A stretch of DNA of 64,000 bases from the NCBI GenBank assembly GCA_002269645.1, contig NIVC01002009.1:31127-95126 (forward strand), given 5' to 3'. Below the pieces are notes generated by a model. It was not told the origin of the DNA, made no database searches, and saw nothing but the letters and a program-made list of their open reading frames with translations. This document shows positions 22,108-54,915 of the stretch, one piece after another. The position numbers and the translations under genes are program-made. The DNA is from Macrostomum lignano. Lineage: Eukaryota. How positions within the stretch are numbered: position 1 is the first letter of the stretch; each line of letters begins with the position of its first letter.

Positions 22108-23450
22108 ATGTACCGCCTGTACAGACAGGTGCCAGTCGCGGGCCGCTACCTGCTGCTGTGCCTGTACCTGTGCCTGTGGGTGTTCGCCCTCTTCAACTAC
22201 AGCAGCAGGTGCCGCTACTCGCAGCCGGACGTCTTCATTGAAGACTGGCCAGCCGACGACTCAAGGCTGAAGTCGGGCCGCTGTTACCTGCGGCGGGACA
22301 GCCTCCAGCTGCAGCCAATAGATATGCATAATGCACCTGAGCTGCATCATCTAGAGACTGCTCTGGCTGGTCCCGAAGTTCCGGCACAGATGAGGTTGCG
22401 TCCTGGCGGAAGCTGGGCTCCATCAAACTGCACCCCACTGCAACACGTAGCCGTGATGGTGGCCTTCAGGAATCGGGACTTTCACTTGCGGCTGCTGCTG
22501 AACCGGCTGCATCGGATGCTGAGAAGGCAGCTGATCAAGTACACTGTGTTTGTGGTTGAGCAGGTGAGTAATGCGTTAAGCAGTAACTTGAGCAGTTGAG
22601 CAGGCAGTTAAGCAGTGAGTTGAGCAGTGAGCTGTGAATTGAGCAGGTGAGCAGGCAGTTGAGCACTGTGTTTCAGCACGTAAACAGACTTAAGCAGATA
22701 GAGGCAGCTTCTAAAATCTACCCAGCCTCTGTGCCCCATCACCCAGACCGGACCGGAGCCCTTCAACCGAGGCATGCTGATGAACGTTGGCGTGGTGGAG
22801 GCCCTGAAGCTGGCCAGCTTTGACTGCTTCATCTTCCACGATGTGGACATGATTCCCGAGCACGATCGGAATGTGTACCTGTGCGATGAGAACGCCAGGC
22901 ACCTGGCATCCGCCATTGACGAGATGCGGTATCACGTGATGTTCTACAACTACCTCGGCGCTGTGCTGGGTGAGTAGCTATGCCGATATGTATCGTTTGA
23001 CGTGTTGTTAGTAAGCGGGATTAAAACCAGTTCTCTTCCCATCGGTCGTGTGCAGCGATGAGCAGCAAGAACTTCTTCCGCATCAACGGCTTCTCCAACG
23101 TGTACTGGGGCTGGGGCAACGAGGACGACGACATCAGCGCCCGCACGATGGAGGCCGGCATGCTGGTGTCCCGTCCGCCGCCCACCCTCGGCCGCTACAA
23201 GATGGTGCGCCACCCCAAGGCCGTCCGCATCGAGAGCGGCAACGAGTACTTCATGGCCTGGCGGGCCAGGCACTATGAGGACGGGCTGAACGCGCTGAGC
23301 AGGGCCTCGTACTCAGTGCTGAGTCGCCAGGCGATGCCTTTGTACACAAACATCTCCGTGCGGCTGTCCCGCCAGCGGCATCGAATAACGCCCGAGTGGC
23401 TGTCCAACTCGGACTCCGTATGGTGGTTTCTGCGATTCTACTATCCATAG
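22108..23450 (+). CDS. GT7-family beta-1,4-galactosyltransferase-like, copy 1
   Basis: Exons 22108-22563, 22747-22969 and 23056-23450. Type II TM segment (YLLLCLYLCLWVFALF). Motifs VAFRNRDFHL, EQTGPEPFNRGMLMNVG, FIFHDVD, INGFSNVYWGWGNEDDD and MVRH. Confidence 0.9.
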
Positions 23451-29470: not shown

Positions 29471-29714
29471 GGACAGAAGTTGGGAGATTTCTAGAATTAT
29501 GCTGTAGTTTAAGCAGGCCTTGAATCAAAATTCTGTTACAATCCTCTTGCATGGCAGAATATTAGGCTAAGTCTCCGGCATCCACCTGTATTCAGTTTGG
29601 GCCATGCATAGAGGACTTGATTACAAGAGGCGGCAAGCAAAGCAGCTGAGACCCGATATCCCTACTCTCTATTTTGTCCCCACCAACAGACGCTGGCAGG
29701 GCCGCCGCTTCCCG

Positions 29715-31054
29715 ATGCGCGTCTGCTGGCACATGTCTGTCGCGGGCCGCTACCTGCTGCTGTGCCTGTACCTGTGCCTGTGGGTGTTCGCCCTCTTCAA
29801 CTACAGCAGCAGGTGCCGCTACTCGCAGCCGGACGTCTTCATTGAAGACTGGCCAGCCGACGACTCAAGGCTGAAGTCGGGCCGCTGTTACCTGCGGCGG
29901 GACAGCCTCCAGCTGCAGCCAATAGATATGCATAATGCACCTGAGCTGCATCATCTAGAGACTGCTCTGGCTGGTCCCGAAGTTCCGGCACAGATGAGGT
30001 TGCGTCCTGGCGGAAGCTGGGCTCCATCAAACTGCACCCCACTGCAACACGTAGCCGTGATGGTGGCCTTCAGGAATCGGGACTTTCACTTGCGGCTGCT
30101 GCTGAACCGGCTGCATCGGATGCTGAGAAGGCAGCTGATCAAGTACACTGTGTTTGTGGTTGAGCAGGTGAGTAATGCGTTAAGCAGTAACTTGAGCAGT
30201 TGAGCAGGCAGTTAAGCAGTGAGTTGAGCAGTGAGCTGTGAATTGAGCAGGTGAGCAGGCAGTTGAGCACTGTGTTTCAGCACGTAAACAGACTTAAGCA
30301 GATAGAGGCAGCTTCTAAAATCTACCCAGCCTCTGTGCCCCATCACCCAGACCGGACCGGAGCCCTTCAACCGAGGCATGCTGATGAACGTTGGCGTGGT
30401 GGAGGCCCTGAAGCTGGCCAGCTTTGACTGCTTCATCTTCCACGATGTGGACATGATTCCCGAGCACGATCGGAATGTGTACCTGTGCGATGAGAACGCC
30501 AGGCACCTGGCATCCGCCATTGACGAGATGCGGTATCACGTGATGTTCTACAACTACCTCGGCGCTGTGCTGGGTGAGTAGCTATGCCGATATGTATCGT
30601 TTGACGTGTTGTTAGTAAGCGGGATTAAAACCAGTTCTCTTCCCATCGGTCGTGTGCAGCGATGAGCAGCAAGAACTTCTTCCGCATCAACGGCTTCTCC
30701 AACGTGTACTGGGGCTGGGGCAACGAGGACGACGACATCAGCGCCCGCACGATGGAGGCCGGCATGCTGGTGTCCCGTCCGCCGCCCACCCTCGGCCGCT
30801 ACAAGATGGTGCGCCACCCCAAGGCCGTCCGCATCGAGAGCGGCAACGAGTACTTCATGGCCTGGCGGGCCAGGCACTATGAGGACGGGCTGAACGCGCT
30901 GAGCAGGGCCTCGTACTCAGTGCTGAGTCGCCAGGCGATGCCTTTGTACACAAACATCTCCGTGCGGCTGTCCCGCCAGCGGCATCGAATAACGCCCGAG
31001 TGGCTGTCCAACTCGGACTCCGTATGGTGGTTTCTGCGATTCTACTATCCATAG
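29715..31054 (+). CDS. GT7-family beta-1,4-galactosyltransferase-like, copy 2
   Basis: Exons 29715 (or 29733)-30167, 30351-30573 and 30660-31054. From VAGRY onward the protein is identical to copy 1, with a constant 7604-bp offset. Confidence 0.9.
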
Positions 31055-34576: not shown

Positions 34577-36520
34577 CCAGGTCCAGTGGCGGATTAGGGG
34601 GGGGGGCGCATAGGGCAGGGCGCACGCCCCCATCGAGTTAGATTTTTATATATGGAAAATGCACATTATCATGTAGCGATTATTTTCAGAATCCGTCTTG
34701 TCAGCACTCATTTTAGCGCCGCAGGCACTCATTCAGGCACTCATTTTAGCGTCGCATGCACTCATTTTAGCGTCGCATGCACTCATTTTAGCGTCGCATG
34801 CACTCATTTTAGCGTCGCATGCACTCATTTTAGCGCCGCAGGCACTCATTTTGGCGCTGAAGGCGCTGTTTTGTCGCCCTGCAGCAAAATGCATTCATGC
34901 AAAGCAGCAAAAATAAAAAATAAGCAAAAAGTCTACATTTTAAATTTAAAATGTGGAGGGGTCAGATACCATTACTGCCCCCCCCCATTTTAAAAAGTGG
35001 GGGGCATGGCCCCACTGTCCACACCTTCCTAAGCCTATGAGTGTACTTTCTTAACTTTGAATCTGCTGCACATCGACACAGAGGGATAATTTTTGTTATT
35101 TCTTCAAATTGATGGTCTATTCAACAGCAGGAATGCCAAGCCACTTTTCCGCCCGTCGAACTACCAAGAGGGGGAATCCCCCCAGACAATTTTTTTGCTG
35201 CGCCGGAACGGAGCAACGCAGGCACACGGAATTCGAGAACACGGGCTAACTTTTTGTTGCGCACATTCTCAAACAAGAATCAAGTCGCCAGCCCTCCGGA
35301 CCGTCGAGATATTCGACGATTCTGCTAGAAGGTCGGATTTTTCCCATAAGCGCTAGTGTATTCAGTACACCCCTGTGCGCCAATCAGCACTGCGCCTCAG
35401 TGCAGCCTTGCCAAGCCTCCAAATTTTATCAGCACGTCGACCACATGTGTCTGCATCAGCTCTGGCTTCGTTAGTCACTGGCCTTCACCGAGACGGAGCT
35501 TCTAGACCTTCAACAGGTGGCACCACGTGACTATGAACACCCTGATGCGAATTTCTAGAGTTTTGCTGATCAAGCCTCGACAGTGGGCAAAATTCAACTG
35601 CTAGGTATCCTCAGCTAGTCTCTCGAGCATTCCGTCATCACCCGGACGCCGTCGGCACCTTCAACAGATTACAGCAGGTGACTATGGACACCTTGATGCG
35701 AATTTCTATAGTTTCGCCGATCAAGCCTCGACAGTGGGAAAGCCTCAACTGCTGGACATCCTCAGCTAGTCTCTCGAGCATTCCGTCACCACCCCGACGC
35801 CGTCGGCTCCTTCAACAGATGACACCAGGTGACTATAGACACGCTGTTGTGAATTTCTTTGATGTCGCTCACCAGCATCAATAATGGACAAACTTTCATT
35901 TCTGGTCGTTCTCAACTAGACTCTCAAATAGTCTATCATCACCAGACATGATTAAGTAAACGTGATGACGTAATTTGTTAATTACACTGTAAATTGAACA
36001 GAATCTTCGCGAAGAAAAAAATACTAGAAATTATCCAATTTTCTGTGTGGAATGAATATCAATTCATAATATACTGAATCTCTAGTCTTCTGTCCTAAAA
36101 GTTGCTAAAATTGTTTAAAATAAAAAAATCATCTCTTTTGGGTGTTTATAGTCGGTTTCGTCTCCTTGAAGGTGCCGACGACGGCAGAATGACAACCGGA
36201 TGCTTGAAAAACTAGTTGAGGATACCTACCAGTAGAGGTTTGCCCATTATTGAAGATTGATTAGAACAATCTAACATATTTGCAACAGGATGTTCATAAT
36301 CACCTGGTGTAATCTGTTGAAAGTGCCGATGGCGTCGGGGTGATGATGGAATGCTTGAGAGACTAGCTGAGGATGTCCAGCAGTTGAGGCTTTCTCACTG
36401 TCGAGGTCGAGGCCTGATCGGCGAAACTAGAGAAATTCGCATCAGGGTGTTCATACGAGCTAGTCACCTCGTGCCACCCGTTGAAGGTCCAGAAGCTCCG
36501 CCTGGGAGAAGGCTAGTGAC

Positions 36521-37223
36521 TGTTGTGTCTCGGCCTAATGGCCGCTGGACGGGTCAAGGTTCGGGCCCTCCCCGCCTGAGACACCCCTGTCCCAGCCCTC
36601 ACCCCGGCTATTCCTACCCTGTCTCGCTCGGTTCGGCGAGAGTTCGCCTGACCGAACACCCTGGGATCGGCGAGAGTTCACCGTTCCCAGGTCCCTGCAG
36701 ATCCCGGCCCCACGCGGCAACCCAGAAGAACGAAAGCTCGAGCTCACCTCCTCTTGATATATCGAGTTACTAACGAAGCGTTTATTGGCCCGAAGCAGTT
36801 ATTGGCACGCGAAGGCAGAGGTACGCCGATGAACGCAAAAACAGTAAGAACGAAGCGGACACCAATAGAGAGCCACGTGGAGCGCAGCCCGCTCAGGGCT
36901 AGCATTTAAATAATACACAAAAAAGGGGGAAGGGGGGGGCAGACTGGAGACGGCGAGCCAAACCCTGGGGCCCAGCCGGCTTATCAGCCAGCCAGCCAAT
37001 ACGAGCAGCCCCAGGGTGAGGCGGGCAACGAGGGAGGGGGGGGGTCGGCACCCAGATTGGACAGAGATTGGGCCGGGGCTGGGTGCAAAGGGCTAGGCCA
37101 GGGTTGAGACTTACGCCTCTCACAAACCCTGGCCCGGGCGCGAGACGGGGGACGGGGCGGGGTGGCATGAAAACTGAAAACAAAAGTACGAGTACATACA
37201 CACTGGAAGGGCGCAGCCCAACA
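36521..37223 (-). repeat. 3' LTR of the Gypsy element
   Basis: Matches 44461-45163; the only differences seen are two G-run lengths. Minus-strand AATAAA at ~36781-36786. Confidence 0.97.
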
Positions 37224-37235
37224 TCCTCCCCCTCC
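37224..37235 (-). other. Polypurine tract
   Basis: ggagggggagga on the minus strand, abutting the 3' LTR. Confidence 0.9.
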
Positions 37236-37462
37236 AAGAAAAAGAAGAGGAGAAAGGGGATGTCAAGCAAAAAGCAACGCATGAACAAGCAAGTCTGAAA
37301 AAAAGTTTATTCAAGAAACGACGGCCGAAAAATAACAGAAAAACTTTGACGCGACGCGTGGATATCGCCGGCATTACAAAAAACAAAAACGAAAAAATGA
37401 AAACGGGACACAAACTATTGCGTACGCAAAATTGAAAACGGGCTTAAGAACGCAATTCTACT

Positions 37463-38137
37463 CTACAATCGGCCAAAAAATCTACTACAGTTGGTCGCAA
37501 ACAGTCGAGTCCAGTACCTGCGATCACATTCACTGTCCGCTAGGGCTTCCGGCACGAACTTGATGGCTGTCGGGTCCTTGGGGTCTCCACCAAACGGTGC
37601 GGCCGATGTCACTAGCAGGCGCTGCCGCGGGAGACGCTTAGCCCGTTGGACCGCTCGCGGGGATCCTCGGCACCGAGCGGACACCTCGAAGAAGACCCCG
37701 TGGCACTTGCTCACCAGCGCGGCCTCGACGGCCTCCGGCAAGTCCAGGTCCTCGGCCAGCATGACGCTCATCGTTTGAAACTCCGGCTGCCGGAGGAATC
37801 CTAGGGCGACCGCCCAGGCAGGTTCGCCGCCTTCAACTCGGAACAAAACCGGCAGGCCGAACTCCTTGGCAAGCAAGAACTGCTCCATCGCCGCCGTTAA
37901 CTGGTCCTGGCGCTGCGACCTCTCAGCGTCCCAATTGAGCTCGACTTCGCCGACCGCCACGACACGCGGCCAGCTACCCGCTAGAAATCGTCGTACATCG
38001 TCTCGCAGCGATGGCCACCACGGTGCAGCACTGGCCTTCAGGCCCAGGGCGAACACGATCCGTCGGTCTTGCAGCAGTGGTCGGACACGGGACATTCTAG
38101 ACGCAGGCAGTACGGCGAGTTTACAGCCGCTAGACAT
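37463..38137 (-). CDS. TatD-like (amidohydrolase TIM-barrel) domain, apparently lacking most metal ligands; Gypsy cargo
   Basis: Matches to the TatD consensus (recalled): IVFALGLK ~ VYAAVGIHP, VVAVGEVELNW ~ VVAIGEIGLDY, QFLLAKEFGLPVLF ~ QLELAKELNLPVII, RLPRQRLLVTSAAPF ~ KIPLDRLLLETDAPY, TNCSRFFG ~ ENARRLF. The N-terminal strand LVDAKAYL (~LIDSHCHL) lies in the overlapping upstream frame. Confidence 0.75.
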   Translation of the reverse strand: MSSGCKLAVLPASRMSRVRPLLQDRRIVFALGLKASAAPWWPSLRDDVRRFLAGSWPRVVAVGEVELNWDAERSQRQDQLTAAMEQFLLAKEFGLPVLFRVEGGEPAWAVALGFLRQPEFQTMSVMLAEDLDLPEAVEAALVSKCHGVFFEVSARCRGSPRAVQRAKRLPRQRLLVTSAAPFGGDPKDPTAIKFVPEALADSECDRRYWTRLFATNCSRFFGRL

Positions 38138-38769
38138 CGACGCACGCCACGAAGGTCCTCGGGCTGAATCGACCGGCCCAGCCTCGTTAGGTATGCCTTT
38201 GCATCGACGAGACGCTTAGCCGAGCTGACCTTGCGCTGATTCGGGTCGTCACGGGGGGAGACCTCCTGGACCGTGTCGGCCGGTCGTACTTGCTCGGGGT
38301 CGACACCCGTTAACTCTTCGGTCGCCAAGTCGCGCTGGGCCGTCAGCGGAGTCTGCGAAAGGTGCGGCCCGTCACTCCCCTCCTCCGGGCGCCGCGCGAG
38401 GCCAGGATCCACTAAGAGAGACAGACCCCGGAGCCTCCCCAACAAGGGACCCCCCAACTCACACAGCTCAAAACCCCGCACAGCCAACAACACGCACTCA
38501 AACGCCGCCTGCAGCACCGAAGGCGGGACCCTCCGACACCTCCCGGAGCCACCACCAGAACCTCTCTTCCGCCCATACTGATTGCACAGAAACGACACAG
38601 ACACTGCTAAGAATCTAGACAACTGCTCAGGCACACTCACACCAGCCCCATCAAGAAACCTCGCCACCTCCTGAACCACCAGGCAAGCTCCTTCACTATC
38701 CCCAGCCCTCAACCGCGCCAGCAGCGCACCCCTCAGCCGCCTACACTCAGCAAGCGCAGCCGGAGCCAA
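38038..38769 (-). CDS. Gypsy cargo ORF, unknown helical region that ends with the TatD N-terminal strand
   Basis: 243-aa ORF with the frame open from ~38822. No signal peptide or clear TM segment. Probably fused to the neighbouring ORFs. Confidence 0.55.
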   Translation of the reverse strand: MAPAALAECRRLRGALLARLRAGDSEGACLVVQEVARFLDGAGVSVPEQLSRFLAVSVSFLCNQYGRKRGSGGGSGRCRRVPPSVLQAAFECVLLAVRGFELCELGGPLLGRLRGLSLLVDPGLARRPEEGSDGPHLSQTPLTAQRDLATEELTGVDPEQVRPADTVQEVSPRDDPNQRKVSSAKRLVDAKAYLTRLGRSIQPEDLRGVRRCLAAVNSPYCLRLECPVSDHCCKTDGSCSPWA

Positions 38770-38896
38770 TAACTCGGCTGGGATCTCCGCGTGAACTGGA
38801 GCTTCCCTGCGGCGCTTCCCTTAAGACTAGCCAAAGCTAACCTGACCTGCTCGGGCAACTCAACGTCAGGGGGAGGATTGAAAAAGTAGGCGTACT

Positions 38897-39136
38897 TTAA
38901 CACCCCTTGACACGCTGCCTCCCAACCCGATCGTATACTTCCCGAAACACTGGGTCAGATAAAACGCACATCGCCATCACGTCTCGCTGAGACTCCGGAG
39001 ACTCTACCTCGGCAGGACAGACGCGGGGCCGCTTTGAGTACAGACGACTACACGCTGCCTCAATCTCCGCAGAGTTAGCAGTCCGACCCACGCCTAACAC
39101 GCCATACAAATCAGTCGGTGTCGTTGGCGACGACAT
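38897..39136 (-). CDS. J-domain-like module without HPD; Gypsy cargo
   Basis: DLYGVLGVGRTANSAEIEAA...VLSDPVFREVYDRVG matches both ends of the DnaJ J-domain consensus (DYYEILGV..A...EIK.A...VLSDP..R..YD..G). The HPD position reads KRPR. Acceptor-like ttgcag| lies 7 nt upstream of the ATG. Confidence 0.65.
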   Translation of the reverse strand: MSSPTTPTDLYGVLGVGRTANSAEIEAACSRLYSKRPRVCPAEVESPESQRDVMAMCVLSDPVFREVYDRVGRQRVKGC

Positions 39137-39436
39137 GGTCCTCCTGCAATGATGACATTTAAACCCAATCACTACCTATGCCTTGCGGACTAGCAACTGT
39201 GACCCTGACCTGACCCATCCTATGACATGTTTATTTTACAATACGATTGAGAACGCTTCTTGCCTAGCATACTTTGTAATTTTAATACATTTAATGTTTT
39301 TTACGTGCTTTCCATGCGTTCCATTTTATGATTTTTTTGTGCTTTGGGGTTGTATCATTTTTTTCATTTTAGGTTATTTTAGGCTTTCTACCATAGACAA
39401 CAGCGTGGAGGCATTAATACAAGTGCATATTAAAAA

Positions 39437-42400
39437 TCAATTTATGACGACCGCCTTGTGAGCCCACTGCGAATTAACGATACAATACCGGATTCCCGTA
39501 ATACGCTGGGGCACACCCCGACGCTCGCGCAGTCTGCGCGGAGACACGGCTGGCGCCGCTGGAGCCACCGGTGCGCATGGCGCAACTGGCGTTCCCGGCC
39601 CTACTATCCCATGCCGAGGCCCAACGGCAACTGGTGGCACCACATACGAGTAAAACTCCTCCTCCTCCTCAAGTTCCGGCTCTTTAGTCGCCGGCCCCGC
39701 GGGCTCCTGTCTGCACCCTGCCGGCTCAGGCGGATGCGCCGACCGGCGCTGCACTGCCGTATGCCTATTCATCAACCTGAACTGCTCAGGCCGCTCGGGT
39801 ACTTTTCGCAAATTATTATAATGCACTATTTTGCTCTTTCCCCTATTGGCGTGCTTTACCCGGTAATTCAAATCGGATATCTTCTCTAACACCTTCGCCG
39901 GCCCCTTCCAATTGCAATGGAACTTGGCTGCCTCCCCTGCCTGCAGCGCAGGCGAGTATTCTAGGACGGCATCCCCACTTCTATGGCCGGGCCTCGCACC
40001 CTTGAGTCGTACAGCACTTTCTGTTTCCTCTGGTACTGCTGCAGGTTGGTCCGCACCTGCGAATGAGCCTCAGCCAGACTATTACCTAATGACTGAACAT
40101 ACGCCGGAGCACTGGCAGGAATGGACTCAGGCAAGGTTCCGATGTCCACTGGAAGCCGCATCTCCCTGGCGTACAGCATGTAGTACGGGGTGTACCCCGT
40201 GCCTCTGTGAACGCTGCTACGGTACGCCATGAGAGACGGGTGGATCAGATCCTCCCAGTCTCCTTCGCCCACCGACTCACTCATCCTGCACTTGATCATT
40301 GACTTCAACGTCTTATTGAAACTCTCAGCCTGACCATCAGCCATCGGGTGATAGGAGGACGTTCTGCATTTCTTAACGGCAAGCAACCGACACAACTGCT
40401 TCATCAAAGCCGACTCAAAATTGGTGCCCTTATCGGTGACTAGAAATTCAGGACAACCAAAGTGCGCAATCCAGTGATCAAAAATCGCTCGCGCCACCGT
40501 CGGGGCTCGCTGATTCGACAAGGGCACCGCCACCGGCCACTTAGTAAAAGAATCCTGGATTGTCAGCACGAATCGATTGCCACCTCTGGACTTGGGCAAC
40601 GGCCCGACAATGTCACTCATGATCCTCTGGAAAGCTCCTTCCGAGCAGATTGGCTGCAAAGGCGCCCGGTTGCTGCGCCCAGGCTTCGCCTTCGCACAGT
40701 GGACACAGCTCCGGCAATACTCTTCCACGGAACGACTCAGCCCCGGCCACCAGTATCTCGCCTTCACTTTCTCTTGTGTCTTCCTAACCCCAAGGTGCCC
40801 TCCTGCAACCCCATCATGAAGCTCACTGAGCACTTTCGGCAGCAAAGCCGGCGGCAGCAAGATCTTTTTCTGGCACCCACTCCCGGGACTCTGAAAATAC
40901 AACAGATCAGACTCTACTCTTATCAGCTGCCGTTGTGCCCACAGCACACGCTCCTCCCACGACATCACTCTAGGCGCACTGGGGTTCGAACCCGGGTCCA
41001 GGGCATAGGAGCGGACAGCTGCAAGCTTCTTCTCGGCCACTTGCGCCTGCTGGACTTCCTTCGAAGACAGCCCACTGCCAAACACCGCGTTCACTACTGG
41101 CACATTCTCGCTAAACTGGCAGCTAGGGCAGCTCTCATGGCCAGCGTGTTTTCGGTACTTGCGAGACAGCGAATCAGCGTTGCCGTGCTCCTTGCCTGGC
41201 CTGTGAATGATCTCAAAGTCGAAGTTCTGGAGCGACTCAAGCCACCTTGCGCACTGACCCTCTACGTCCTTCAGACTGGCTAGCCACTGCAAAGCTTTGT
41301 GGTCTGAACGAACAGTGAACTTTCTACCTAACAAATAGTACCTATACTTTTTGACGAAGTGCACGACGGCAAGCAACTCTAACCTGGTGGTGCAATAATT
41401 TTTCTCCGCCGCATGAATCATCCTAGACCCGTAAGCGATCACCTTCTCACGGCCATCTGCTTGACGCTGTGACAGGACGGCTCCCAGCCCGACGCGCGAA
41501 CTGGCGTCCGTGTCGAGGATGAACTCCCCGGCACCAGGCGAAAAATCCGGGAATGCCATCACATTCGGTGAACACAAAGCGTCTTTCAGCCTGCAAAACG
41601 AGCTCTCCTCTTCACTACCCCACTCAAACTTCACTCCGTCTGCGGTTAACCTATACAGCGGCGCTGCAATCTCTGAAAACTGCGGGATAAATGACTGATA
41701 GTAGGCGCACGTACCCAGGAATGCCTGCACCTTCTTGGCGCTACATGGCCTCGGCCAATTCTGGATCTCCTCGCACTTGCTCGGATCCGTTGCGATCCCC
41801 TCCTGAGAGACGATGTGGCCCAGAAACTTCACCCGCTCTGCGAGGAACACACACTTGGCGGGCTTCAGCTTGACATTGGCATCCCTCAGGCACTGGAAAA
41901 CATGCTTCAATCGCTCGAGATGCTGACCCACCGACTTGGCGAACACGACTATATCGTCAAAGTACACCAGGCACTCCTTCCAGTTAACCTCAGACAGGGC
42001 CATAGACATTAGCCTGGCGAACGTAGCGGGAGCATTGCGCAAGCCAAAACTCATGCACTTCCAGGCGAACTGACCCCTGTTGGGTACCACGAACGCCGTT
42101 TTCAACTGGTCCTTCGGCTCAATCGGGCACTGATGATAGCCGGAGGCCAGATCCATCGTCGAGAAAACACAGTTCCCTCCTAGCGCATCAAGCGTCTCGT
42201 CCATCCGCGGCGGTGGGTAAGGATCTGGCACTGTGACCTCGTTAAGGCGCCGATAGTCTAGACACAACCTCAAGCTACCGTCGGCCTTTTTAACCGGCAC
42301 GATCGGGCTCGCCCACGGAGAGTAGCAGGGATAGATGCGATCCTGCTGCAACAACTCATCAACCTGCTTATCAATTTCCTCCTTCCAGCGCGGTGGAATC

Positions 42401-43410
42401 CTACGCGCGGGCTGACTTACTGGCTTGGCGTTGCCGGTGTCAATCTCATGCGCCATCAAGTGTGACTGTCCCAACTCCGAGCTATCCCTGGCAAAGACAT
42501 CACGATTCCGAGCCATCAGGCGCTCAAACTCGTGCTTCTCATCGCCCGTCAGGCCACATCCTCCCCACTCCTTGACATCGCTGAGGGGGTTCCAGTCGTC
42601 TCGGACACTCTCCACCGAGTTCACCTGCCACCCAGCTGGCTGCTGGGCCGCCACTGGGGAGAACCAACCAATTCGGCTTCCCTTCCTTAATGACAGACTG
42701 CATCCTGACGTGTTCAACACCCTGACAGCCAAGCGACCGTCCCCGTCAGGCATCTGTACCGATCTGGCCACCATCTGCTCGTTACTCACTCTCCTCTCAG
42801 ACTCCACAATGCCTAGGAACTGAACCCCAGAGGGAACCCTTCTCTGCAACCTGACGTGCACCACCTTCTCTTGACCTGCATTGAACTGCTCAGGCTGACT
42901 CAGCACCAGACGGCAAAGACGCGGCTTATCTGCTGATAAGCGAAACGGATACACACAGGATGCAGTCTGCAAGCAATTCCTAGCAAAGTCAATCGCCATC
43001 CCGTGTCTCACGAAAAAGTCAGTGCCCAGAATACATGCCACAGCCAGTTCCTCGACCACAGCGAACTCGTGCAAAAACTCGGTGTCCCCAACAGAAAACT
43101 TCATCGTCACCATTCCATGTACAGCAATCGGTTCCCCATTGGCAGCGAAAACGGAAAAATTCGGCAAATTCGGCGATAAGTCAATGTCGGCTTTTCTAGA
43201 CTTCAGGAAACGGTTGCTTAACAACGACACGGTGGCCCCGCTGTCCAGCAGACATGCAATCGGGGGCCCAAACCTAAACTGTGCATCCACATAGCCCAGT
43301 CCCTGCCGACTCAGCACACTCTGGGACAAGGCCGCGGCCCCCGATGCACCCGGATTCACTGACGCTGGGGCCCGGACGGGTGCCCCGGCCGAGCCCCCAA
43401 TCCGTTTCCC
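39437..43410 (-). CDS. pol: Gypsy Pol polyprotein (protease, RT, RNase H, integrase)
   Basis: Motifs LLDSGAT, YFDD, DTDAS, HHCC (H..GGHLG, C..C), DIVGP...DKGTNF...AESFN. One -1 break at ~39970 falls in a G run; restoring it gives VGDAVLEYSP...WKGPAKVLEKISDLNYRV through to 39437. Confidence 0.96.
43346..43410 (-). other. -1 ribosomal frameshift signal: G GGA AAC plus H-type pseudoknot
   Basis: Slippery heptamer 43410-43404 in gag frame SGN, 6-nt spacer, stem 1 GGGGCTCGG/CCGGGCCCC, stem 2 GCACCCG/CGGGTGC. Pol is in the -1 frame. Confidence 0.85.
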
Positions 43411-44336
43411 GAACCCGACTGGTCCCACCGACGATAGCAGCGGTTGCGCATGTGCCCTGACTGGCCACACTCCCGGCAGACCACTGCATTACGGCACCGA
43501 GCCGTAGTATGCCCTGTCTGCAGGCACCGACCACACTGCCTCTGCTGCTGACTCTGCTCAGGGGCTCGATGCTGCAAGCTCACTTTTGGCTGCTCAGACC
43601 TTGCTGTCGCCATCGGCGCAGTGGGCGCTGCAGCACTTGCTTTTAGCTGAGCCACTTCCGCTTTCAGAGTTGCTATCTCGGCGGCTGCCCTGGACTCCTG
43701 GCTGTTGCCAGCCGCTGCGGCCTGACCCCCCACCATGTGCACAGCTCGCTTACCCTCGGGCTCCATCAGAGCCAACGATGCCCTCACTTGACGCACCCGC
43801 CTAATAGCGTCCTGGAGCGTCTCTGGCGCTTGCAGCAGCACGCTCTCCAGCACCCGGGCTGGCACCCGAATCCCCTTCAAAAACCTGTCTTTCACCAACT
43901 CTTCTCGCTGGGCCGCTGGCAGCATTGGGTACGATTTTCTCATAAGCTCCTTGAGCACGTCTGCATATTCTTCAATGGGCTCGCCATCTTTCTGATTCCT
44001 ACTCTGGAACTCGGTCTTGTAATCTTGAGCAGTCCTATTCTCATCAAACCTAGCTTCTAGCTGCTCAACAAACTCATCATACGGCAAATCATCGGCCAAC
44101 TCAAGATTCGCAACAGCCTTAAAAGCAGTATTAAAGTCAAGCAGACTGAGCAGCGCCTGCTTGCGCTGATCCCCTAGAATATGAGCCGCCTCACAATACC
44201 CTGTGAATTGTTGCATCCAAAGGGCAAAGTCCTGTGTGGGCACGTACTTATTTGGCCTCGGCACCCGCTGTGCCACATTAAGTTCGTTTTGCAGACGCGC
44301 CGTCAGGGCGTCAATCAGATCGTCTAAATTGGCCAT
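43356..44336 (-). CDS. gag: Gypsy Gag with two CCHC zinc knuckles
   Basis: ATG at 44336 (MANLDDLIDAL). Knuckles CGRCLQTGHTTARC and CRECGQSGHMRNRC. Capsid-like RNQKDGEPIEEY...L motif. Confidence 0.93.
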   Translation of the reverse strand: MANLDDLIDALTARLQNELNVAQRVPRPNKYVPTQDFALWMQQFTGYCEAAHILGDQRKQALLSLLDFNTAFKAVANLELADDLPYDEFVEQLEARFDENRTAQDYKTEFQSRNQKDGEPIEEYADVLKELMRKSYPMLPAAQREELVKDRFLKGIRVPARVLESVLLQAPETLQDAIRRVRQVRASLALMEPEGKRAVHMVGGQAAAAGNSQESRAAAEIATLKAEVAQLKASAAAPTAPMATARSEQPKVSLQHRAPEQSQQQRQCGRCLQTGHTTARCRNAVVCRECGQSGHMRNRCYRRWDQSGSGNGLGARPGHPSGPQRQ

Positions 44337-44440
44337 GGCTACAAAAACACAGAGACAACCGAAGCAAACAACACACAAATAAACTAGGCAACACACACAA
44401 CCCTAAACACACGGCAGGACAGCAGGGGAGAGGACCGCTG

Positions 44441-44458
44441 ATCCTGGTCACGGCACCA
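44441..44458 (-). other. Primer-binding site, tRNA-His
   Basis: TGGTGCCGTGACCAGGAT starts 2 nt inside the 5' LTR boundary. It is complementary to the invertebrate tRNA-His 3' end ATCCTGGTCACGGCA-CCA (recalled). Confidence 0.9.
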
Positions 44459-44460
44459 CT

Positions 44461-45163
44461 TGTTGTGTCTCGGCCTAATGGCCGCTGGACGGGTCAAGGT
44501 TCGGGCCCTCCCCGCCTGAGACACCCCTGTCCCAGCCCTCACCCCGGCTATTCCTACCCTGTCTCGCTCGGTTCGGCGAGAGTTCGCCTGACCGAACACC
44601 CTGGGATCGGCGAGAGTTCACCGTTCCCAGGTCCCTGCAGATCCCGGCCCCACGCGGCAACCCAGAAGAACGAAAGCTCGAGCTCACCTCCTCTTGATAT
44701 ATCGAGTTACTAACGAAGCGTTTATTGGCCCGAAGCAGTTATTGGCACGCGAAGGCAGAGGTACGCCGATGAACGCAAAAACAGTAAGAACGAAGCGGAC
44801 ACCAATAGAGAGCCACGTGGAGCGCAGCCCGCTCAGGGCTAGCATTTAAATAATACACAAAAAAGGGGGAAGGGGGGGCAGACTGGAGACGGCGAGCCAA
44901 ACCCTGGGGCCCAGCCGGCTTATCAGCCAGCCAGCCAATACGAGCAGCCCCAGGGTGAGGCGGGCAACGAGGGAGGGGGGGGGGTCGGCACCCAGATTGG
45001 ACAGAGATTGGGCCGGGGCTGGGTGCAAAGGGCTAGGCCAGGGTTGAGACTTACGCCTCTCACAAACCCTGGCCCGGGCGCGAGACGGGGGACGGGGCGG
45101 GGTGGCATGAAAACTGAAAACAAAAGTACGAGTACATACACACTGGAAGGGCGCAGCCCAACA
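44461..45163 (-). repeat. 5' LTR of the Gypsy element
   Basis: 703 bp, TG...CA, direct repeat of 36521-37223. Confidence 0.97.
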
Positions 45164-46713
45164 TGACCAACGAAGTCAGAGCTGATGCAGACACATGTGG
45201 TTGACGTGCTGATGAAATTTGGAGACTTGGCAAGGCTGCACTGAGGCGCAGTGCTGATTGGCGCACAGGGGTGTACTGAATACACTATAGCGCTTATGGG
45301 AAAAATCCGACCTTCTAGCAGAATCGTCGAATATCTCGACGGTCCGGAGGGCTGGGGCGACTTGATTCTTGTTTGAGAATGTGCGCAACAAAAAGCTAGC
45401 CCGTGTTCTCGAATTTCGTGTGCCTGCGTTGCTCCGTTCCGGTGCAGCAAAAAATTGTCAGGGGGGTGGAAATTCCCCCCCCTCTCTTGGTAGTTCTACT
45501 GTTAATATCAAAGTTCATATCAGGCCTAAACAGCTTTGCTCAGCCTGTAAATGAACGCTTCAATTAAGAAACTTTTTTATTGAAAATTATACAATTATAC
45601 GTGTGAAACAAAAAATCTTTAGACAAACAATACATGGCTCTTTGCATTGTGTATCAAATACTTCAAAATCGCTTCTACGTATGCTTACTCGCAAGTAGCC
45701 CATCGCTTATACGCGTACATCTAACATGTACGAGTATCCTACTGAAGGCACCTGGCACAGTGCCGGCTGTCATAAAAACCTTAAATTTTAAATATCCAAT
45801 TAAGTGATATTTTGCACTCCAAATATAACTTGAGAAGCTATACAAGCGTATATGGTCATTCTAAATAGCCGAATTAAACTTTAAATGAAAATGTTGTTTA
45901 TAGCCTTTCTGGTACCAATTTTGAATTCTACTCGTACCATCATCCCGTTCGGTGCACGCGGCACCTCATTTTGCATATGCTTCAATTATTTCAATAATTC
46001 TGCTCTGTTCTCTCTGCACAGCAGCAGTATTTCAAGCTTTCTACATATCTGTTCGATAGCTCGATGCCTCGCAATGGTTTGACGCGATTCAAAACATTTC
46101 TGTCGCATGAGTCTTTTTGTCAGCTTGCTTCTTGCAACGGCCCACACAAGGCTCGGCATGTTTAGAAGCGTCTAGCAGAATGCACTGCCTGTCTCCCATT
46201 GATGAAACAGAGCTCTCTTATTGGTCCGTAGCCTCACAATTGCAACTGTAAAACTATATTTTTATTTAAAAAGAAACAGAAGAAACAACGGCCCCGTCTT
46301 TCCATATAGCGCTTCAAAACCGAGATCGTATTTTCTATTCGAGTTGACCGTGTCAAAGGCAGGTAAGTCTATTGTACGCATGACAGCATGCAGAGTTCCA
46401 AACCTTTTGCTGCCCATTTTTCAACAAGTTATCCGTGTTGAATACTAAGCAAATCTATATAACTAAATCTATCTTTGCTAAAGTCTGGAGGCAGGGCTGG
46501 CGTCTTGTCTCCTGTCTGAGAGGTGAGGAACAGTAAGTGATCCCGTATCCTTGTGGCAGCACAAAAATTGACAGACAAAGGTAAAGTACATGTACGCACC
46601 TGTGTACTGAATCTGATGTGTGGCAAATGCCCCCCCCCATCCAAACCGTCAGAAAACGAAGCTGAACTCTGCCCTTGCCGTGCTGCAAGTCAAGCGAAGC
46701 TCTTTACCCCGCC

Positions 46714-48089
46714 ATGTTCTGCCGCGGGTACCCGATACGCGTCAGCAGGCACATGTCTGTCGCGGGCCGCTACCTGCTGCTGTGCCTGTACCTGTGCCTG
46801 TGGGTGTTTGCCCTCTTCAACTACAGCAGCAGGTGCCGCTACTCAGAGCCGGACGTCTTCATTGAAGACTGGCCAGTCGACGACTCCAGGCTGAAGTCGG
46901 GCCGCTGTTACCTGCGGCGGGACAGCCTCCAGCTGCAGCCAATAGATATGCATAATGCACCTGAGCTGCATCATCTGGAGACTGCTCTGGCTGGTCCCGA
47001 AGTTCCGGCACAGATGAGGTTGCGTCCTGGCGGAAGCTGGGCTCCATCAAACTGTACCCCACTGCAACACGTAGCCGTGATGGTGGCCTTCAGGAATCGG
47101 GACTTTCACTTGCGGCTGCTGCTGAACCGGCTGCATCGGATGCTGAGAAGGCAGCTGATCAAGTACACTGTGTTTGTGGTTGAGCAGGTGAGCAATGCGT
47201 TAAGCAGTAACTTGAGCAGGTGAGCAGTCATTTGAGCAGGCAGCTGATCAAGTACACTGTGTTTGTGGTTGAGCAGGTGAGCAATGAAGTTAAGAATTAA
47301 GAAGTAAGTTCAGCAGTTCAGCAGGTGAGCAGTGAGTTGAGCAGGTAAAGAGGCAGCTTTTAAAATCTTCTCTGCCGCATCACCCAGACAGGACCGGAGC
47401 CCTTCAACCGAGGCATGCTGATAAATGTTGGCGTGGTGGAGGCACTGAAGCTGGCCAGCTTTGACTGCTTCGTCTTCCACGATGTGGACATGATTCCCGA
47501 GCACGATCGGAATGTGTACCTGTGCGATGAGAACGCCAGGCACCTGGCATCCGCCATTGACGAGATGCGGTATCACGTGATGTTCTACAACTACCTCGGC
47601 GCTGTGCTGGGTGAGTAGCTATGCCGATATGTATGGTTTTGACGTGTTAGTAAGCGGGATTAAAAGCAGTTCTCTTCCCATCGGTTGTGTGCAGCGATGA
47701 GCAGCAAGAACTTCTTCCGCATCAACGGCTTCTCCAACGTGTACTGGGGCTGGGGCAACGAGGACGACGACATCAGCGCCCGCACGATGGAGGCCGGCAT
47801 GCTGGTGTCCCGTCCGCCGCCCGCCCTCGGCCGCTACAAGATGGTGCGCCACCCCAAGGCCGTCCGCATCGAGGGCGGGTACACGCACTTTATGGCCTGG
47901 CGGGCCAGGCACTATGAGGACGGGCTGAACGCGCTCAGAAAGAACTCGTACACGATCGTCAGTCGCCAGGCGATGCCTTTGTACACAAACATCTCAGTGC
48001 GGCTGTCGCTCTCCCGGCACCAGATGAAGCAGGAGTGGCTGTCAAAAACAGACTCCGTTTGGTGGTTTCTACGATTCTATTATCCGTAG
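46714..48089 (+). CDS. GT7-family beta-1,4-galactosyltransferase-like, copy 3 (diverged C-terminus)
   Basis: Exons 46714 (or 46753)-47187, 47388-47610 and 47695-48089. Same motifs and intron positions as copies 1 and 2. Confidence 0.9.
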
Positions 48090-50878: not shown

Positions 50879-53800
50879 TAGGGATTGCAATCCTGGGATT
50901 GGGGTCCCGAATCCCGGGACAAATTTTTGTTTTTATTTTTACAAAGTGTTGTAATATGAACATAATTGGACTCACAACTAGTTTATTATACTGCGCTAAT
51001 TCCGTTAACCGCCTTCACGTCGCGTGGCGCTTTTTTAAACCCGGCATCACAGATTTAAATGTGAAATTTATTCCAATTTAAATTTTGATATTTGATTTGC
51101 TTCTTTACTACTAGTTATTACTTTTATACTACTTTGTGGCGGCCCAATCAGCACGCAGCCAGCGATTGCGAGTACATCTGCACTGAAACCCCCTGCCCGC
51201 CAGGCTGGGGGGTGGGTGTACTCGGACAGACAGCCAATATGCTAAGTCGGGGGGTTGGCCTTCAATCGTGCCACCTTCTTAGCGCACCTCCCCATGTGAT
51301 CGCGTGCTCGCATCAGTGAACAGCTCGACGGCCGACAACAACAGCAGCCTGCTGCTCATTCCCGATGTGCTGACGGGCCGGCGCTTCCTGGTCGACACGG
51401 GCGTTGAGGTTAGCATCTTCCCTGTCACTGGTACCGATGCACACCTGCGGTCCCCTGGCCCGCCGCTTTACGCAGCCAATGGCAGCCTGATTCGCACCTT
51501 CGGCTCCCGGCAGCTCACGCTCGACCTCGGCATCAAGCGATGCTCCTGGCCGTTCGTCTTGGCCGAAGTGTCGCGCCCGCTAATCGGCGCGGACTTCCTT
51601 CGCCACCACGGCCTGCTGGTGGACCTGCCGCACCGGCGGCTCCTGGACGCCCGCTCGCTCGCCAGCGTGAACCTGCTGGACGGCATTGGGCCTGGCCTGC
51701 AGCTCGCCGCGGCTTCCACCGCAGACCCGTACAGCCAGCTGCTGGCCGAGTTCCCCGCCCTCACCGAGCCCAGTTTCCAGCGGGCTGAGCCACGACACGG
51801 GTGGAGCACCACGTCCCGACGCAGGGCCCGCCGGTCCATGCCCGCCCTCCCGCCTGCCGCCGGACAAGCTGGCGGTGGCCAAGGAGGAGTTCCGGCTCCT
51901 GGAGCAGCTCGGCATCGTTTGCCGGTCAAACAGCCCGTGGTCCTCGCCGCTGCACATGGTGCCCAAGGCCTCGGGTGGCTGGCGTCCCTGTGGCGATTTC
52001 AGGCGGCTCAACGACGCCACGGTGCCCGACCGCTACCCGGTGCCGCACATCCAGGACTTTTCAGCGCGCCTGGCCGGCTGCTCGGTCTTTTCCAAGATCG
52101 ACCTGGTTCGCGGCTACCACCAGGTACCCGTGGCTGCGGCCGACGTGCCCAAGACCGCCGTCATCACCCCGTTCGGCCTCTTCGAGTTCCTGCGAATGCC
52201 GTTCGGGCTCAAGAACGCCGCCCAGGCCTTCCAGCGGTTGGTGGATTTTGTCTGCCAGGATCTCGACTTCGTTTTCGCCTACATTGACGATTTCCTGGTC
52301 GCCAGCCGCAGCCCGCAGCAGCACCTGGAGCACCTGCGCACGCTGTTCTAGCGCCTGGCGGACAACGGTCTGATCATCAATCCGGCGAAGTGCGAGTTCG
52401 GCTGCAGCGAGATCGACTTCCTCGGCCACCAAATCAGCGCCCAGGGAGCCGTGCCGCTGCCCGCCAAAAGTCGACGCTATCGCCAGGTTTGCACCGCCAG
52501 CCACCGTCAAGGGCCTGCAGGAGTTCGCCGGCATGGTGAATTCCTACCACCGCTTCGTGCCGCGGGCCGCCCAGCTGCTGCGCCCCATCCATGCGGCCAC
52601 GGCCGGCAAGGAGAAGCTCGTGAGGTGGACACCCGAGCTGACTGCCGCCTTCGAAGGAGCCAAGCGGGCGCTGGCTTCAACCGCACTGCTGGTGCACCCG
52701 CGGGCGGACGCGCCCATCGCCCTCACTGTCGACGCCTCGGACACCGCCGTCGGCGCAGCGCTCGAGCAGCGGGTGGGCGGCGCGTGGCAGCCGCTCGCCT
52801 TCTTCAGCCGGCAGCTCCGAACGCCCGAGCAGAAGTACAGCGCGTTCGACCGCGAGCTGCTCGCCCTGTACCTGGCGGTCCGGCATTTCCGCTACGCGCT
52901 CGAGGGCCGCGCCTTCACCGCCTTCACGGATCACAAGCCGCTGGTCGCGGCCATGTCTAAGATGTCGGACCCGTGGTCGGCACGACAGCAGCGGCATCTG
53001 GCGTACGTGTCTGAGTTCACCACCGATGTCCAGCACGTCGCGGGCAAGGACAACCCGGTGGCGGACGCGCTGTCCCGCTGCACGATCGCCTCGGTGCAGC
53101 CCCGGCTGCTCCCCGGTGTTGACTTCGCGGCCATGGCGCAGGCGCAGACAGCCGACCCAGCTGCCCAAGAGGACGCTAGCCTTCAGCTCGAGCCGCTGCA
53201 GCTCAGCCCTGGCATCGCCCTGCTGTGCGACATCTCAACCGGCCGGCCGCGCCCGCTGGTGCCTCCGGATTTCCGCCGTGCCGTCTTCGACGCCATCCAC
53301 GGCCTCGCCCACCCGTCAGTCCGCAGCACGCGGCGCCTCGTGGCCGCCAAATTCGTGTGGGCTGGCATGAACCGGGACGTCAGCCGGTGGGCGCGCACTT
53401 GCGTAGCCTGCCAGACGGCCAAGGTGCATCGGCACGTCACCGCCCCGGTGGTCTCTTCGCGTCCCAGACCAGCGCTTCGCCCACGTGCATGTCGACTTGG
53501 TGGGGCCGCTGCCGTCGTCTCAAGGGTTTACGCACTTGCTGACGATCGTTGACCGATTCACCAGGTGGCCGGAGGCGATCCCGATGACTTCCGCCGCAGC
53601 CTGTGCCTCTGCCTTCATCACCCACTGGGTTGCCCGATTTGGCGTGCCGGGTGACCTCACCTCGGACCGCGGCTCGCAGTTCACGTCGCAGCTCTGGTCC
53701 AACATCTCCCGGCTGCTCGGCATACAGCTGCACCGGACTACGGCCTTCCATCCGCAGGCGAACGGGCTGGTCGAGCGGTTCCATCGGCAGCTGAAGGCCG

Positions 53801-54915
53801 CCCTCAGGGCGCGGCTGACAGGACCGGCCTGGGTTAGCGAGCTGCCCTAGGTGCTGCTCGGCATCCGGACGGCGCCCAAGGAGGACCTGCCGGCATCATC
53901 GGCTGAGCTGGTCTACGGAGCGCCTCTGCGTGCCCGGTGAGTGCCTGCAGCCCGGCCCGGCAACCGAAGGCCACGACCAGTTTCTCGTTCGGCTCCGCGA
54001 CGCAGTCCAGACGTTCCGGCCGACACCCACGGCGCATCACGGCTGCCGCCCGGCCGCCTGGCCCGCCGCACTGGATGCCTGCCCGTTCGTGTTCGTCCAG
54101 CGTCCAGCTAAAACTTACTTAAATACGTCACAAAATAATCGCCGGAATTCGGCCAATCCCAGGATCAGAAAAATACAGATTTTTAAGCTTCCGGGTTGGA
54201 ATTTTAAGGCTAAACGTTTTTTGCTACCAACTTTGATTGTAGATCGAGAGTTAATGATCTACTTGCAGATGAAAAACAGCATTATCTTATGATTTTGACG
54301 TATTTAAGTTGTATAAAATTACTAGTATATTAGTAGTTAAGAAGTAAACCAAATATCAAAATTTACATTGCAATAAATTTCACATTAAAATCTGTTATGC
54401 CACAAATTTCAAATGCAATATACATGGATGTGTTTATCGAGTATCGAGTAGGAGTGTATAAAACGAAAAGTATTGATTAAGCTTCTGAAGCTGATCTAAA
54501 TTAACTCGATCCATTGAGACTATCTACTCTGATCTCACTCTCACACAGCATCAAATACTGAGCTCGTAGCAACTAGCAACTACGAGGTACCAACCAACCA
54601 AGCGGAAGCTTATCAACTGACAACTACCAACCAATACCAATTGCCAAGTCTATCCATTAAGTAATTTGAAAAACGAAAACAAAAATTCTGACAGACATTT
54701 AGTTTTCACTCGAGTAACAGTAACGGTTTAAAAAGACGCCACGCGACGTGAGGCAATTAACGGAAATTAGCGCAGTATAATAAACTAGTTTTGGGCCCAA
54801 TTATGTTCATATTACAACACCCTTTTTGTTATAACAAAAATACAAACAAAAATTTTTCCCGAGGATCGGGAAATTTAGATTTTAAATCCCGGGATTGGGA
54901 TTTGGGCAATCCCTG
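50879..54915. mobile_element. ~4-kb TIR element (hAT-like ends) enclosing a Gypsy pol fragment
   Basis: 50879-51041 is inverted at 54727-54915, and 51043-51135 is inverted at 54310-54405. Ends tagggattgc / gcaatccctg. Shares the atcccgggat motif with the adjacent MITE. No clean TSD. Confidence 0.7.
51304..54103 (+). pseudogene. pol: Decayed Gypsy pol (PR-RT-RH-IN), truncated
   Basis: Motifs FLVDTGVEVS, YIDD, VDASD, HVDLVGP and SDRGSQF...NGLVERFH. Several frameshifts and two nonsense codons (52349-52351, 53848-53850). No gag or paired LTRs. Confidence 0.92.

What the first reader, a model, noticed from the sequence alone, without database searches (positions are those of the whole stretch)
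37463..38230. TatD-like domain looks like a pseudo-nuclease
Aligned by eye to the TatD consensus, the HxH ligands become KAY (LVDAKAYL), the strand-6 His becomes R (LPVLFRV) and the catalytic Asp of ETDAP becomes A (TSAAP). Only the Glu of GE is kept. The frame is stop-free over 224 codons and keeps the structural hydrophobic pattern. Inference: selection for a non-catalytic role such as DNA/RNA binding or competing with host TATDN1/2/3.
Basis: partly seen in the sequence, partly recalled or inferred. Interest (0 to 1): 0.75.

Follow-up and report, generated by a model that had tools for sequence, protein, structure and literature searches.

The report
Dead-nuclease gene in flatworm retrotransposon
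A young Gypsy-type jumping gene, almost certainly of the flatworm Macrostomum lignano, carries a third gene that joins a disabled chaperone-like domain to a TatD nuclease fold lacking nearly all its metal-binding residues yet apparently kept by selection, which points to an undescribed non-enzymatic helper role.

Summary
It ends a third gene, about 555 codons, between pol and the 3' LTR of a young Ty3/Gypsy retrotransposon, almost certainly of Macrostomum lignano. The window splits this gene over three frame changes, and LVDAKAYL lies outside the 224-codon frame. Contigs of 4 of 4 runs show a gap at each frame change but keep the site substitutions, so the breaks are probably assembly errors.

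The model is a TatD barrel (Z 22.1 to YcfH). Only the strand-4 Glu of seven site residues remains. A 51%-identical relative lacks the same downstream ligands and is stop-free, which neutral drift gave in 12 of 2000 runs. The N-terminal J-like domain also lacks its HPD motif.

Best reading: a selected, non-catalytic accessory protein (0.6). A rewired active site remains possible (0.17), because the kept Glu is the key residue in human TATDN1/3. The donor is unresolved. My literature searches found no TatD or DnaJ cargo in retrotransposons.

The parts
45164..45167 (.). Target-site duplication, 4 bp (TGAC), outer side of the 5' LTR
   Evidence: Same 4 bases at 36517-36520; the host flanks with one copy align across the junction to the opposite arm of a foldback repeat (83.8% over 717 nt)
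44461..45163 (-). 5' LTR, 703 bp, TG...CA; no heat-shock element
   Evidence: 99.7% identical to the 3' LTR, 0 mismatches, 2 one-base gaps; HSE scan empty
44682..44690 (-). Candidate splice donor (GAG|GTGAGC) for a subgenomic mRNA; inferred
   Evidence: Only match to the donor pattern in the first 900 nt of the element; no joint observed
44447..44458 (-). Primer-binding site TGGTGCCGTGAC (tRNA-His-type; that assignment is recalled, not from a call)
   Evidence: Position 2 nt behind the 5' LTR
43356..44396 (-). gag ORF
   Evidence: Retrotrans_gag E 9.3e-5, zf-CCHC E 0.025
39437..43470 (-). pol, order PR-RT-RNase H-IN; frame change near 39972 in the window copy
   Evidence: RVT_1 E 6.5e-33, RT_RNaseH E 1.9e-33, rve, Integrase_p58_C; gap at this place in 4 of 4 runs
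39144..39149 (-). Candidate splice acceptor (TTGCAG), 7 nt before the ATG of the third gene; inferred
   Evidence: Sequence; AT-rich 300-nt spacer after pol, GC about 0.35; the match of gene model P0002 starts here
38924..39136 (-). Third gene, part 1: J-like domain with RPR in place of HPD
   Evidence: Pfam DnaJ E 7.5e-5, below the cut-off; PDB DnaJ chains E 3e-4, alignment shows HPD replaced
38808..38921 (-). Third gene, linker; frame changes near 38920 and 38804 in the window copy
   Evidence: Read in frame by P0001 and P0002; gaps at both places in 4 of 4 runs
38215..38802 (-). Third gene, part 2: helical region of no known family, then a probably disordered stretch
   Evidence: No Pfam or NCBIfam hit; single-sequence model pLDDT 48.6, helices 9-131; no fold match at E<=0.001
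37463..38211 (-). Third gene, part 3: TatD-fold domain lacking six of seven site residues; frame change near 38086 in the window copy; stop at 37465-37463
   Evidence: gap at the frame change in 4 of 4 runs
37224..37235 (-). Polypurine tract directly before the 3' LTR
36521..37223 (-). 3' LTR
36517..36520 (.). Target-site duplication, outer side of the 3' LTR

Best explanation
A young Ty3/Gypsy retrotransposon of a macrostomid flatworm carries a sense-strand third gene in the env position. Shown: the element's anatomy; one J-like + helical + TatD-like chain of about 555 residues when read with X at the three frame changes; a TatD barrel with only the strand-4 Glu left; a J-like domain without HPD; no membrane segment. 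Inferred: the gene is read from a spliced subgenomic mRNA (donor in the 5' LTR, acceptor just before the ATG) into a soluble accessory protein. The barrel no longer holds two metals and cuts nothing. Its mouth has Lys, Lys and Arg where TatD has His, so it most likely binds nucleic-acid ends or RNA:DNA hybrids of the element's own replication intermediates and protects or escorts them. The J-like and helical parts would supply protein contacts without stimulating Hsp70. Non-catalytic and selected: about 0.6. Nucleic-acid binding specifically: about 0.35.
For: Fold: top 9 of 50 listed VIA rows are TatD-type chains, Z 22.1-18.4, best rmsd 2.5 over 218 residues; other amidohydrolase folds score 14.2 or less. 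Foldseek best E 6e-9, YcfH. Site: in 11 TatD rows the strand-4 Glu, strand-5 His, strand-6 His and strand-8 Glu and Asp are 11 of 11, the strand-3 His 10 of 11, HxH 7 of 7 rows that reach it; here only the Glu remains. The 237-residue domain has 1 His, at the start of strand 7, against 7-11 in six TatDs counted. Not errors: one other letter is listed inside the domain across 4 runs, a Thr codon. Selection: P0003 (51% identical, 166 aa) keeps GE, has the same Arg on strand 5, no strand-6 His and Gly at the Asp position; a neutral simulation to that distance stayed stop-free in 12 of 2000 runs. Coding-like GC3 0.71 against 0.35-0.38 in the flanking non-coding parts. HPD lost. Highest 19-residue hydropathy 1.49.
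Against: No activity or binding data. The kept Glu bridges both metals and is the key residue in TATDN1/3. Acidic residues after strands 6 and 7 and two Cys are identical in the window and P0003. The model was built on an alignment holding nine bacterial-type TatD rows, which pulls it towards TatD, and strands 6-8 have pLDDT near 57-69. Selection rests on one unnamed, N-terminally incomplete relative whose genomic context I could not see. Exact identity to P0003 is not significantly higher at core columns (31 of 54 against 48 of 103, p 0.24). The basic surplus of the domain (35 K+R, 29 D+E) is not shared by P0003 (14, 15). 62 'other letter' rows and 3 gap rows were not shown. Splicing was not observed.
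Confidence: 0.6

Rival explanations
1. Rewired enzyme: the His-based site was replaced by a carboxylate site (strand-4 Glu plus the conserved Glu-Asp after strand 6 and the Glu on strand 7), with Lys and Arg holding the phosphate, so the domain is still a nuclease or phosphoesterase, perhaps of new specificity.
For: The essential Glu is kept in both sequences; E-D after strand 6, the strand-7 Glu and the strand-5 Arg are identical in the window and P0003. Single His149, His174 or Asp222 changes barely affected TATDN1. The review PMC10211241 notes that some pseudoenzymes have migrated residues (search listing only).
Against: Six of seven site residues are lost together, and the strand-8 Asp position differs between the two sequences (Ala, Gly). 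The equivalent D218A cut TATDN3 activity 30-fold, and TATDN2 needed a second Glu, E705 (PMC10711561 abstract). The strand-5 Arg and strand-7 Glu could simply pair inside the barrel (inference).
Confidence: 0.17
2. Host-directed decoy: the protein competes with host TATDN enzymes for R-loops or reverse-transcription hybrids, or titrates J-protein partners, and so blocks a host restriction.
For: Two independently disabled host-like modules in one gene. Human TATDN2 degrades the RNA strand of R-loops (abstract). Viral pseudoenzymes that compete with host enzymes are known (PMC7605207 abstract).
Against: No call shows that host TatD restricts retrotransposons, or that this domain derives from a host TATDN (one search does not resolve the donor).
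Confidence: 0.1
3. Decaying relic: a captured or inherited TatD/DnaJ gene that has lost function and is carried passively in a young element.
For: Both domains score below their Pfam cut-offs; three frame changes in the window copy; bdelloid extra ORFs showed no significant departure from neutrality within the genome (PMC5408684 passages).
Against: The frame changes are not shared by the main contigs of 4 of 4 runs, and pol has the same kind of break. Stop-free divergence to 51% identity occurred in 12 of 2000 neutral runs, indels ignored; the hydrophobic core is kept.
Confidence: 0.08
4. The third gene serves the host or is a structural part of the particle, and the TatD barrel is only a stable scaffold with no nucleic-acid role.
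For: P0003 has no basic surplus; the middle region has only weak, inconsistent likeness to helical repeat scaffolds (recognition 1632, below the reliable range).
Against: The gene sits inside a young insertion with near-identical LTRs and a target-site duplication, and in at least two other gene-model contexts, so it moves with the element.
Confidence: 0.05

Closest known systems
TatD/YcfH/TATDN metal-dependent 3'-5' exonucleases and AP endonucleases (PF01026, TIGR00010; PDB 6l25, 4pe8, 1yix, 8efg, 2y1h)
   Same: TIM-barrel fold (Z 22.1, rmsd 2.5, 218 aligned), GE motif with its Glu, strand order, leading Asp of strand 1.
   Different: Neither HxH nor (G/A)xN on strand 1; strand-3, -5 and -6 His and strand-8 Glu/Asp lost; 15-22% identity to solved chains; fused behind a J-like and a helical domain; inside a retrotransposon.
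Juno and Vesta LTR retrotransposons of bdelloid rotifers with DEDDy exonuclease or GDSL esterase ORF3 (PMC5408684; passages read)
   Same: An enzyme-derived, non-env third ORF in an invertebrate LTR retrotransposon, proposed to be auxiliary in replication.
   Different: Their invariant residues are reported intact and the folds differ; TatD and DnaJ occur 0 times in that text. Catalytically dead GDSL derivatives are noted there only for the Athena-L family.
J-domain proteins (DnaJ/Hsp40, PF00226)
   Same: Weak but repeated match over the whole 63-position domain.
   Different: HPD replaced by RPR; score below the cut-off. That HPD is needed to stimulate Hsp70 is textbook knowledge, recalled.
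Pseudonucleases such as Maelstrom and EXD1 (passage in PMC5408684) and fungal Dis3/RNase II pseudonucleases (PMC8097288, listing only)
   Same: Nuclease fold kept, catalytic residues lost, RNA binding retained: the working model here.
   Different: Those are host genes of other folds; binding is not shown here.
Sea-urchin Gypsy clade with an intact TatD third gene (earlier scan note e1-7881919, unchecked AI note)
   Same: Same position and same domain family.
   Different: Reported as catalytically intact; no J-like domain is mentioned in the lines shown. Kinship with this element was not tested.

Membership tests
TatD family (PF01026) | TatD-type TIM-barrel fold | tested here: met
   Model pLDDT 71.7, pTM 0.76, eight strands; Foldseek E 6e-9; VIA Z 22.1. 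The alignment held bacterial TatD rows; single-sequence evidence agrees (Pfam E 4.8e-6; Atlas 0.93, 30 of 30 hits TatD).
TatD family (PF01026) | Pfam gathering score 27 bits | tested here: not met
   26.6, 26.4 and 20.2 bits; the window pieces lack strands 1-2.
TatD family (PF01026) | Strand-1 motif HxH (group II) or (G/A)xN (group I), as defined in PMC10085689 section 12 | tested here: not met
   K-x-Y at these columns.
TatD family (PF01026) | Bridging Glu of GE | tested here: met
   Glu codon at 37948; also in P0003.
TatD family (PF01026) | Two His ligands of metal B (strands 5, 6) and the strand-8 Asp | tested here: not met
   Arg on strand 5; no His on strand 6 under either register (differ by three columns); Ala at the Asp (Gly in P0003).
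TatD family (PF01026) | Metal-dependent nuclease activity | not testable with these tools
   Needs an assay.
J-domain proteins (PF00226) | J-domain sequence pattern | tested here: inconclusive
   E 7.5e-5 over positions 1-63 of 63 but 23.2 bits against a cut-off of 27.8; not folded.
J-domain proteins (PF00226) | HPD motif | tested here: not met
   RPR at the aligned place in the three alignments shown.
Ty3/Gypsy LTR retrotransposons | gag, then pol in the order PR-RT-RNase H-IN | tested here: met
Ty3/Gypsy LTR retrotransposons | Paired TG...CA LTRs, PBS, PPT, target-site duplication | tested here: met
Ty3/Gypsy LTR retrotransposons | Clade (Mag, CsRN1, Gmr1/Osvaldo, Mdg3/Micropia) by RT tree | not tested
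   No reference RT sequences were at hand.
env-carrying elements | Membrane segment in the third ORF | tested here: not met
   Highest 19-residue Kyte-Doolittle mean 1.49.
Heat-induced LTR families of M. lignano (PMC12801592) | Canonical heat-shock element in the LTR | tested here: not met
   No two- or three-unit HSE in the LTR.

The most novel reading that the evidence does not exclude
A lineage of animal Gypsy retrotransposons that inherited an active TatD third gene turned it, in flatworms, into a double decoy: a dead TatD barrel that shields the element's RNA:DNA intermediates from host TATDN-type nucleases, fused to an HPD-less J domain that intercepts chaperone machinery. It would be a retrotransposon counter-defence protein built from two pseudo-modules, and would imply that host TatD enzymes restrict retrotransposons.
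Probability: 0.15. Interest if true: 0.8.

Novelty: new variant of a known kind. Interest (0 to 1): 0.5.

Why it matters
Extra genes of LTR retrotransposons show what limits these elements in their hosts. This one keeps two host-like folds but has dropped the working motif of each, and the sequence evidence says selection retains it. If it binds hybrids or blocks host TatD enzymes, it gives TATDN proteins a role in retrotransposon control and supplies a TatD pseudo-nuclease, which my searches did not find described. It is testable in a worm with transgenesis (PMC5730564, listing only). It also shows an annotation trap: UniProt lists these pieces as a host 'J domain-containing protein' and 'ribonuclease H'.

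Tried and rejected
Stand-alone 224-codon gene: rejected, the frame starts off-register.

Pseudogene by frameshift: rejected as the family state, since the gaps are window-specific.

No whole genome is held, so copies could not be counted; contig depth is no copy number and was not used.

Expression: no RNA holder listed, which is no evidence either way. The gene models skip 38640-38353 as an in-frame GT-AG intron; one search lists no such joint, and the 5' LTR was outside the laid stretch, so neither splice was tested properly.

Homologue searches; 0 hits among 1422 candidates; 1 among 6559; 3 among 8000, only P0003 degenerate; 11 hits, 3 close. Metagenome scan: 8 loci of 394 matches, 24-43% identical; 6 of 8 translated with a strand-1 HxH, the other 2 were cut short, and none matched gag, pol, J or the middle region. 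Viral contigs: 0 of 170 and 0 of 7. BFVD: one match at E<=0.001, a Yasminevirus protein at 19% identity, not followed.

Middle region: no family, no reliable fold. Rfam: 0 matches.

Donor: a profile of the two degenerate sequences alone ranks S. aureus YcfH 28.1 bits, TATDN3 22.4, YjjV 21.0, TATDN1 18.3, E. coli TatD 15.1. These are too close to call, TATDN2 was not among the hits, and no eukaryotic TatD sequences were in hand for a tree.

Heat-shock link, suggested by the J domain: no HSE.

No complex prediction was run; no binding claim needed one.

Full report
Context. The finding lies in an 8.6-kb Ty3/Gypsy retrotransposon on the minus strand. Its LTRs (36521-37223 and 44461-45163) differ by 0 mismatches and 2 one-base gaps. 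They begin TG and end CA and are flanked by a 4-bp duplication. A primer-binding site and a polypurine tract are in place. gag and pol have the order PR-RT-RNase H-IN. The closest database proteins are two Macrostomum lignano gene models, P0001 and P0002, 97% and 96% identical to the finding's ORF, so the host is almost certainly that flatworm (inference). The two models share only the element-derived part and match the window only inside the element. This suggests further insertions, although gene models can stitch distant exons.

Observation. The 224-codon ORF exists and hits Pfam TatD at E 4.8e-6 from profile position 53 on. Between pol and the 3' LTR the window changes frame near 38920, 38804 and 38086. 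P0001 and P0002 read through all three places as one chain: J-like domain, linker, helical region, TatD-like domain. Read with X at each change, the chain is 555 residues with no stop. About the first 17 codons of the 224-codon ORF are therefore off-frame.

Are the breaks and the substitutions real? I laid 4 of the 24 listed runs, from four studies, on 37230-44450. The main contigs of 4 of 4 runs show a gap against the window at each of the three frame changes, and also at the frame change in pol near 39972. Inside the TatD-like part one other letter is listed, in 3 of 4 runs, and it falls in a Thr codon away from the site. 62 weaker rows of that table were not shown. The frame changes therefore belong to this assembled copy and are probably sequencing errors; the site substitutions belong to the family.

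Fold. A 237-residue stretch of P0001, aligned with P0003 and nine bacterial-type TatD rows, gave a model with pLDDT 71.7 and eight strands. Foldseek's best match is E. coli YcfH, E 6e-9. VIA-align ranks S. aureus YcfH first (Z 22.1, rmsd 2.5, 218 aligned), human TATDN1 and TATDN3 at 19.5 and 19.4, and non-TatD amidohydrolase folds at 14.2 or less. The alignment biases the model, but single-sequence tests agree.

Site. Against 11 TatD rows only the strand-4 Glu remains of seven positions. HxH is K-x-Y, the strand-3 His is Lys, the strand-5 His is Arg, strand 6 has no His under either register, and the strand-8 Asp is Ala; the neighbouring Glu is Thr. I left P0005 (itself degenerate), P0004 (a fragment with an internal repeat), P0007 (represented by its cluster member P0012) and most near-duplicate cluster members out of that set. 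The domain holds 1 His against 7-11 in six TatDs counted. The Arg is on strand 5, not 6.

A caution on 'dead'. In PMC10085689 (sections 12, 14, 15 and passages read) E112A was the only TATDN1 change that reduced both activities; H149A, H174A and D222A did little singly, while D218A cut TATDN3 30-fold. The residue kept here is thus the most important one. Window and P0003 also share E-D after strand 6, a strand-7 Glu and two Cys. Loss of all other ligands at once makes a normal two-metal site very unlikely, but a rewired site is not excluded (0.17). I could not measure distances in the model.

Selection. One relative outside the family was found among 1.84 billion representatives: P0003, unnamed, 166 aa, 51% identical. 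It keeps GE, has the same strand-5 Arg, no strand-6 His and Gly at the Asp position; it does not reach strands 1-3. Neutral substitution to that distance stayed stop-free in 12 of 2000 runs. Both sequences are hydrophobic at 42 of 54 core columns against 33 of 103 others (p 5e-8), but exact identity is not enriched there (p 0.24). This is one comparison, with unknown context for P0003.

Rest of the gene. The N-terminal 71 residues match DnaJ weakly but repeatedly, and HPD is replaced by RPR. The middle region is helical, then probably disordered, with no family or reliable fold. There is no membrane segment, so this is not env. A donor-like site in the 5' LTR and an acceptor-like site 7 nt before the ATG suggest a spliced mRNA (inference). 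The LTR has no heat-shock element, so this is not one of the HSE-bearing families of PMC12801592 (abstract, first part of Results, passages, Table S1 and part 1 of 8 of supplement 5 seen). That supplement lists six families only, so no family name could be assigned; supplements 2-4 were not read.

Mechanism. Most likely (0.6) a soluble, non-catalytic accessory protein kept because it helps the element. The Lys, Lys and Arg at former His positions suggest that it binds nucleic-acid ends or RNA:DNA hybrids of the replication cycle (0.35 for this detail). P0003's neutral charge argues against leaning on that. Rivals: rewired enzyme 0.17, host-directed decoy 0.1, relic 0.08, plain scaffold 0.05. 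The donor is unresolved.

What is known. Enzyme-derived third ORFs occur in bdelloid Juno and Vesta elements, with intact catalytic residues (PMC5408684, passages). TatD and DnaJ occur 0 times in PMC12801592, PMC5408684, PMC6431247 and PMC13524379 (term searches). Library searches pairing TatD or DnaJ/J-domain with retrotransposon terms and TatD with pseudoenzyme terms listed nothing on such cargo. I saw listings only, 20 of 178 rows and 20 of 31, plus passages of PMC6962438 and PMC10778899. PMC5408686, with one TatD mention, was not opened. Repbase and most subscription journals are not covered. An unchecked scan note, e1-7881919, reports a sea-urchin Gypsy clade with an intact TatD third gene. 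If it holds, this element may be a derived, inactivated member, and the donor question moves from host capture to inheritance. I could not test this.

Verdict. Observation partly confirmed; interpretation partly supported. A real third gene of a flatworm Gypsy element, built from two apparently disabled modules: a new variant of a known kind, interest 0.5.

Noticed in passing
window 39136-38924 (-): The J-like domain at the start of the same gene has RPR in place of HPD: a second disabled module.
   Followed up: yes
window 38780-39147: A low-depth contig of run X3, about 91% alike (33 other letters), covers only the J-like domain and linker and stops at the acceptor-like site; a loose end at 38780 in X1. 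Possibly a related family with a different downstream part, or a host gene.
   Followed up: no
window 35155-35842 and 36142-36520 plus 45164-45499: The retrotransposon inserted into one arm of a foldback element with arms of about 700 bp and 151-bp internal units.
   Followed up: partly
window 22122-23450, 29701-31054, 46721-48089: Three copies, about 91-98% alike, of a gene that reads like a beta-1,4-galactosyltransferase (label recalled, not searched).
   Followed up: no
window 51304-53850 (+): A second, unrelated Gypsy-like pol, 31-41% identical to this one, split over several frames.
   Followed up: no
P0005 (ENA, 192 aa, unnamed): A bacterial-type TatD that has also lost its site, including the GE Glu and both downstream His: perhaps an independent TatD pseudo-enzyme.
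   Followed up: no
window 38640-38353 (-): An in-frame 288-nt stretch with GT...AG ends that both gene models skip; it could give a shorter isoform. No joint was listed.
   Followed up: partly
BFVD A0A5K0U911: An uncharacterised Yasminevirus protein has the TatD fold (E 2.2e-6, TM 0.69).
   Followed up: no
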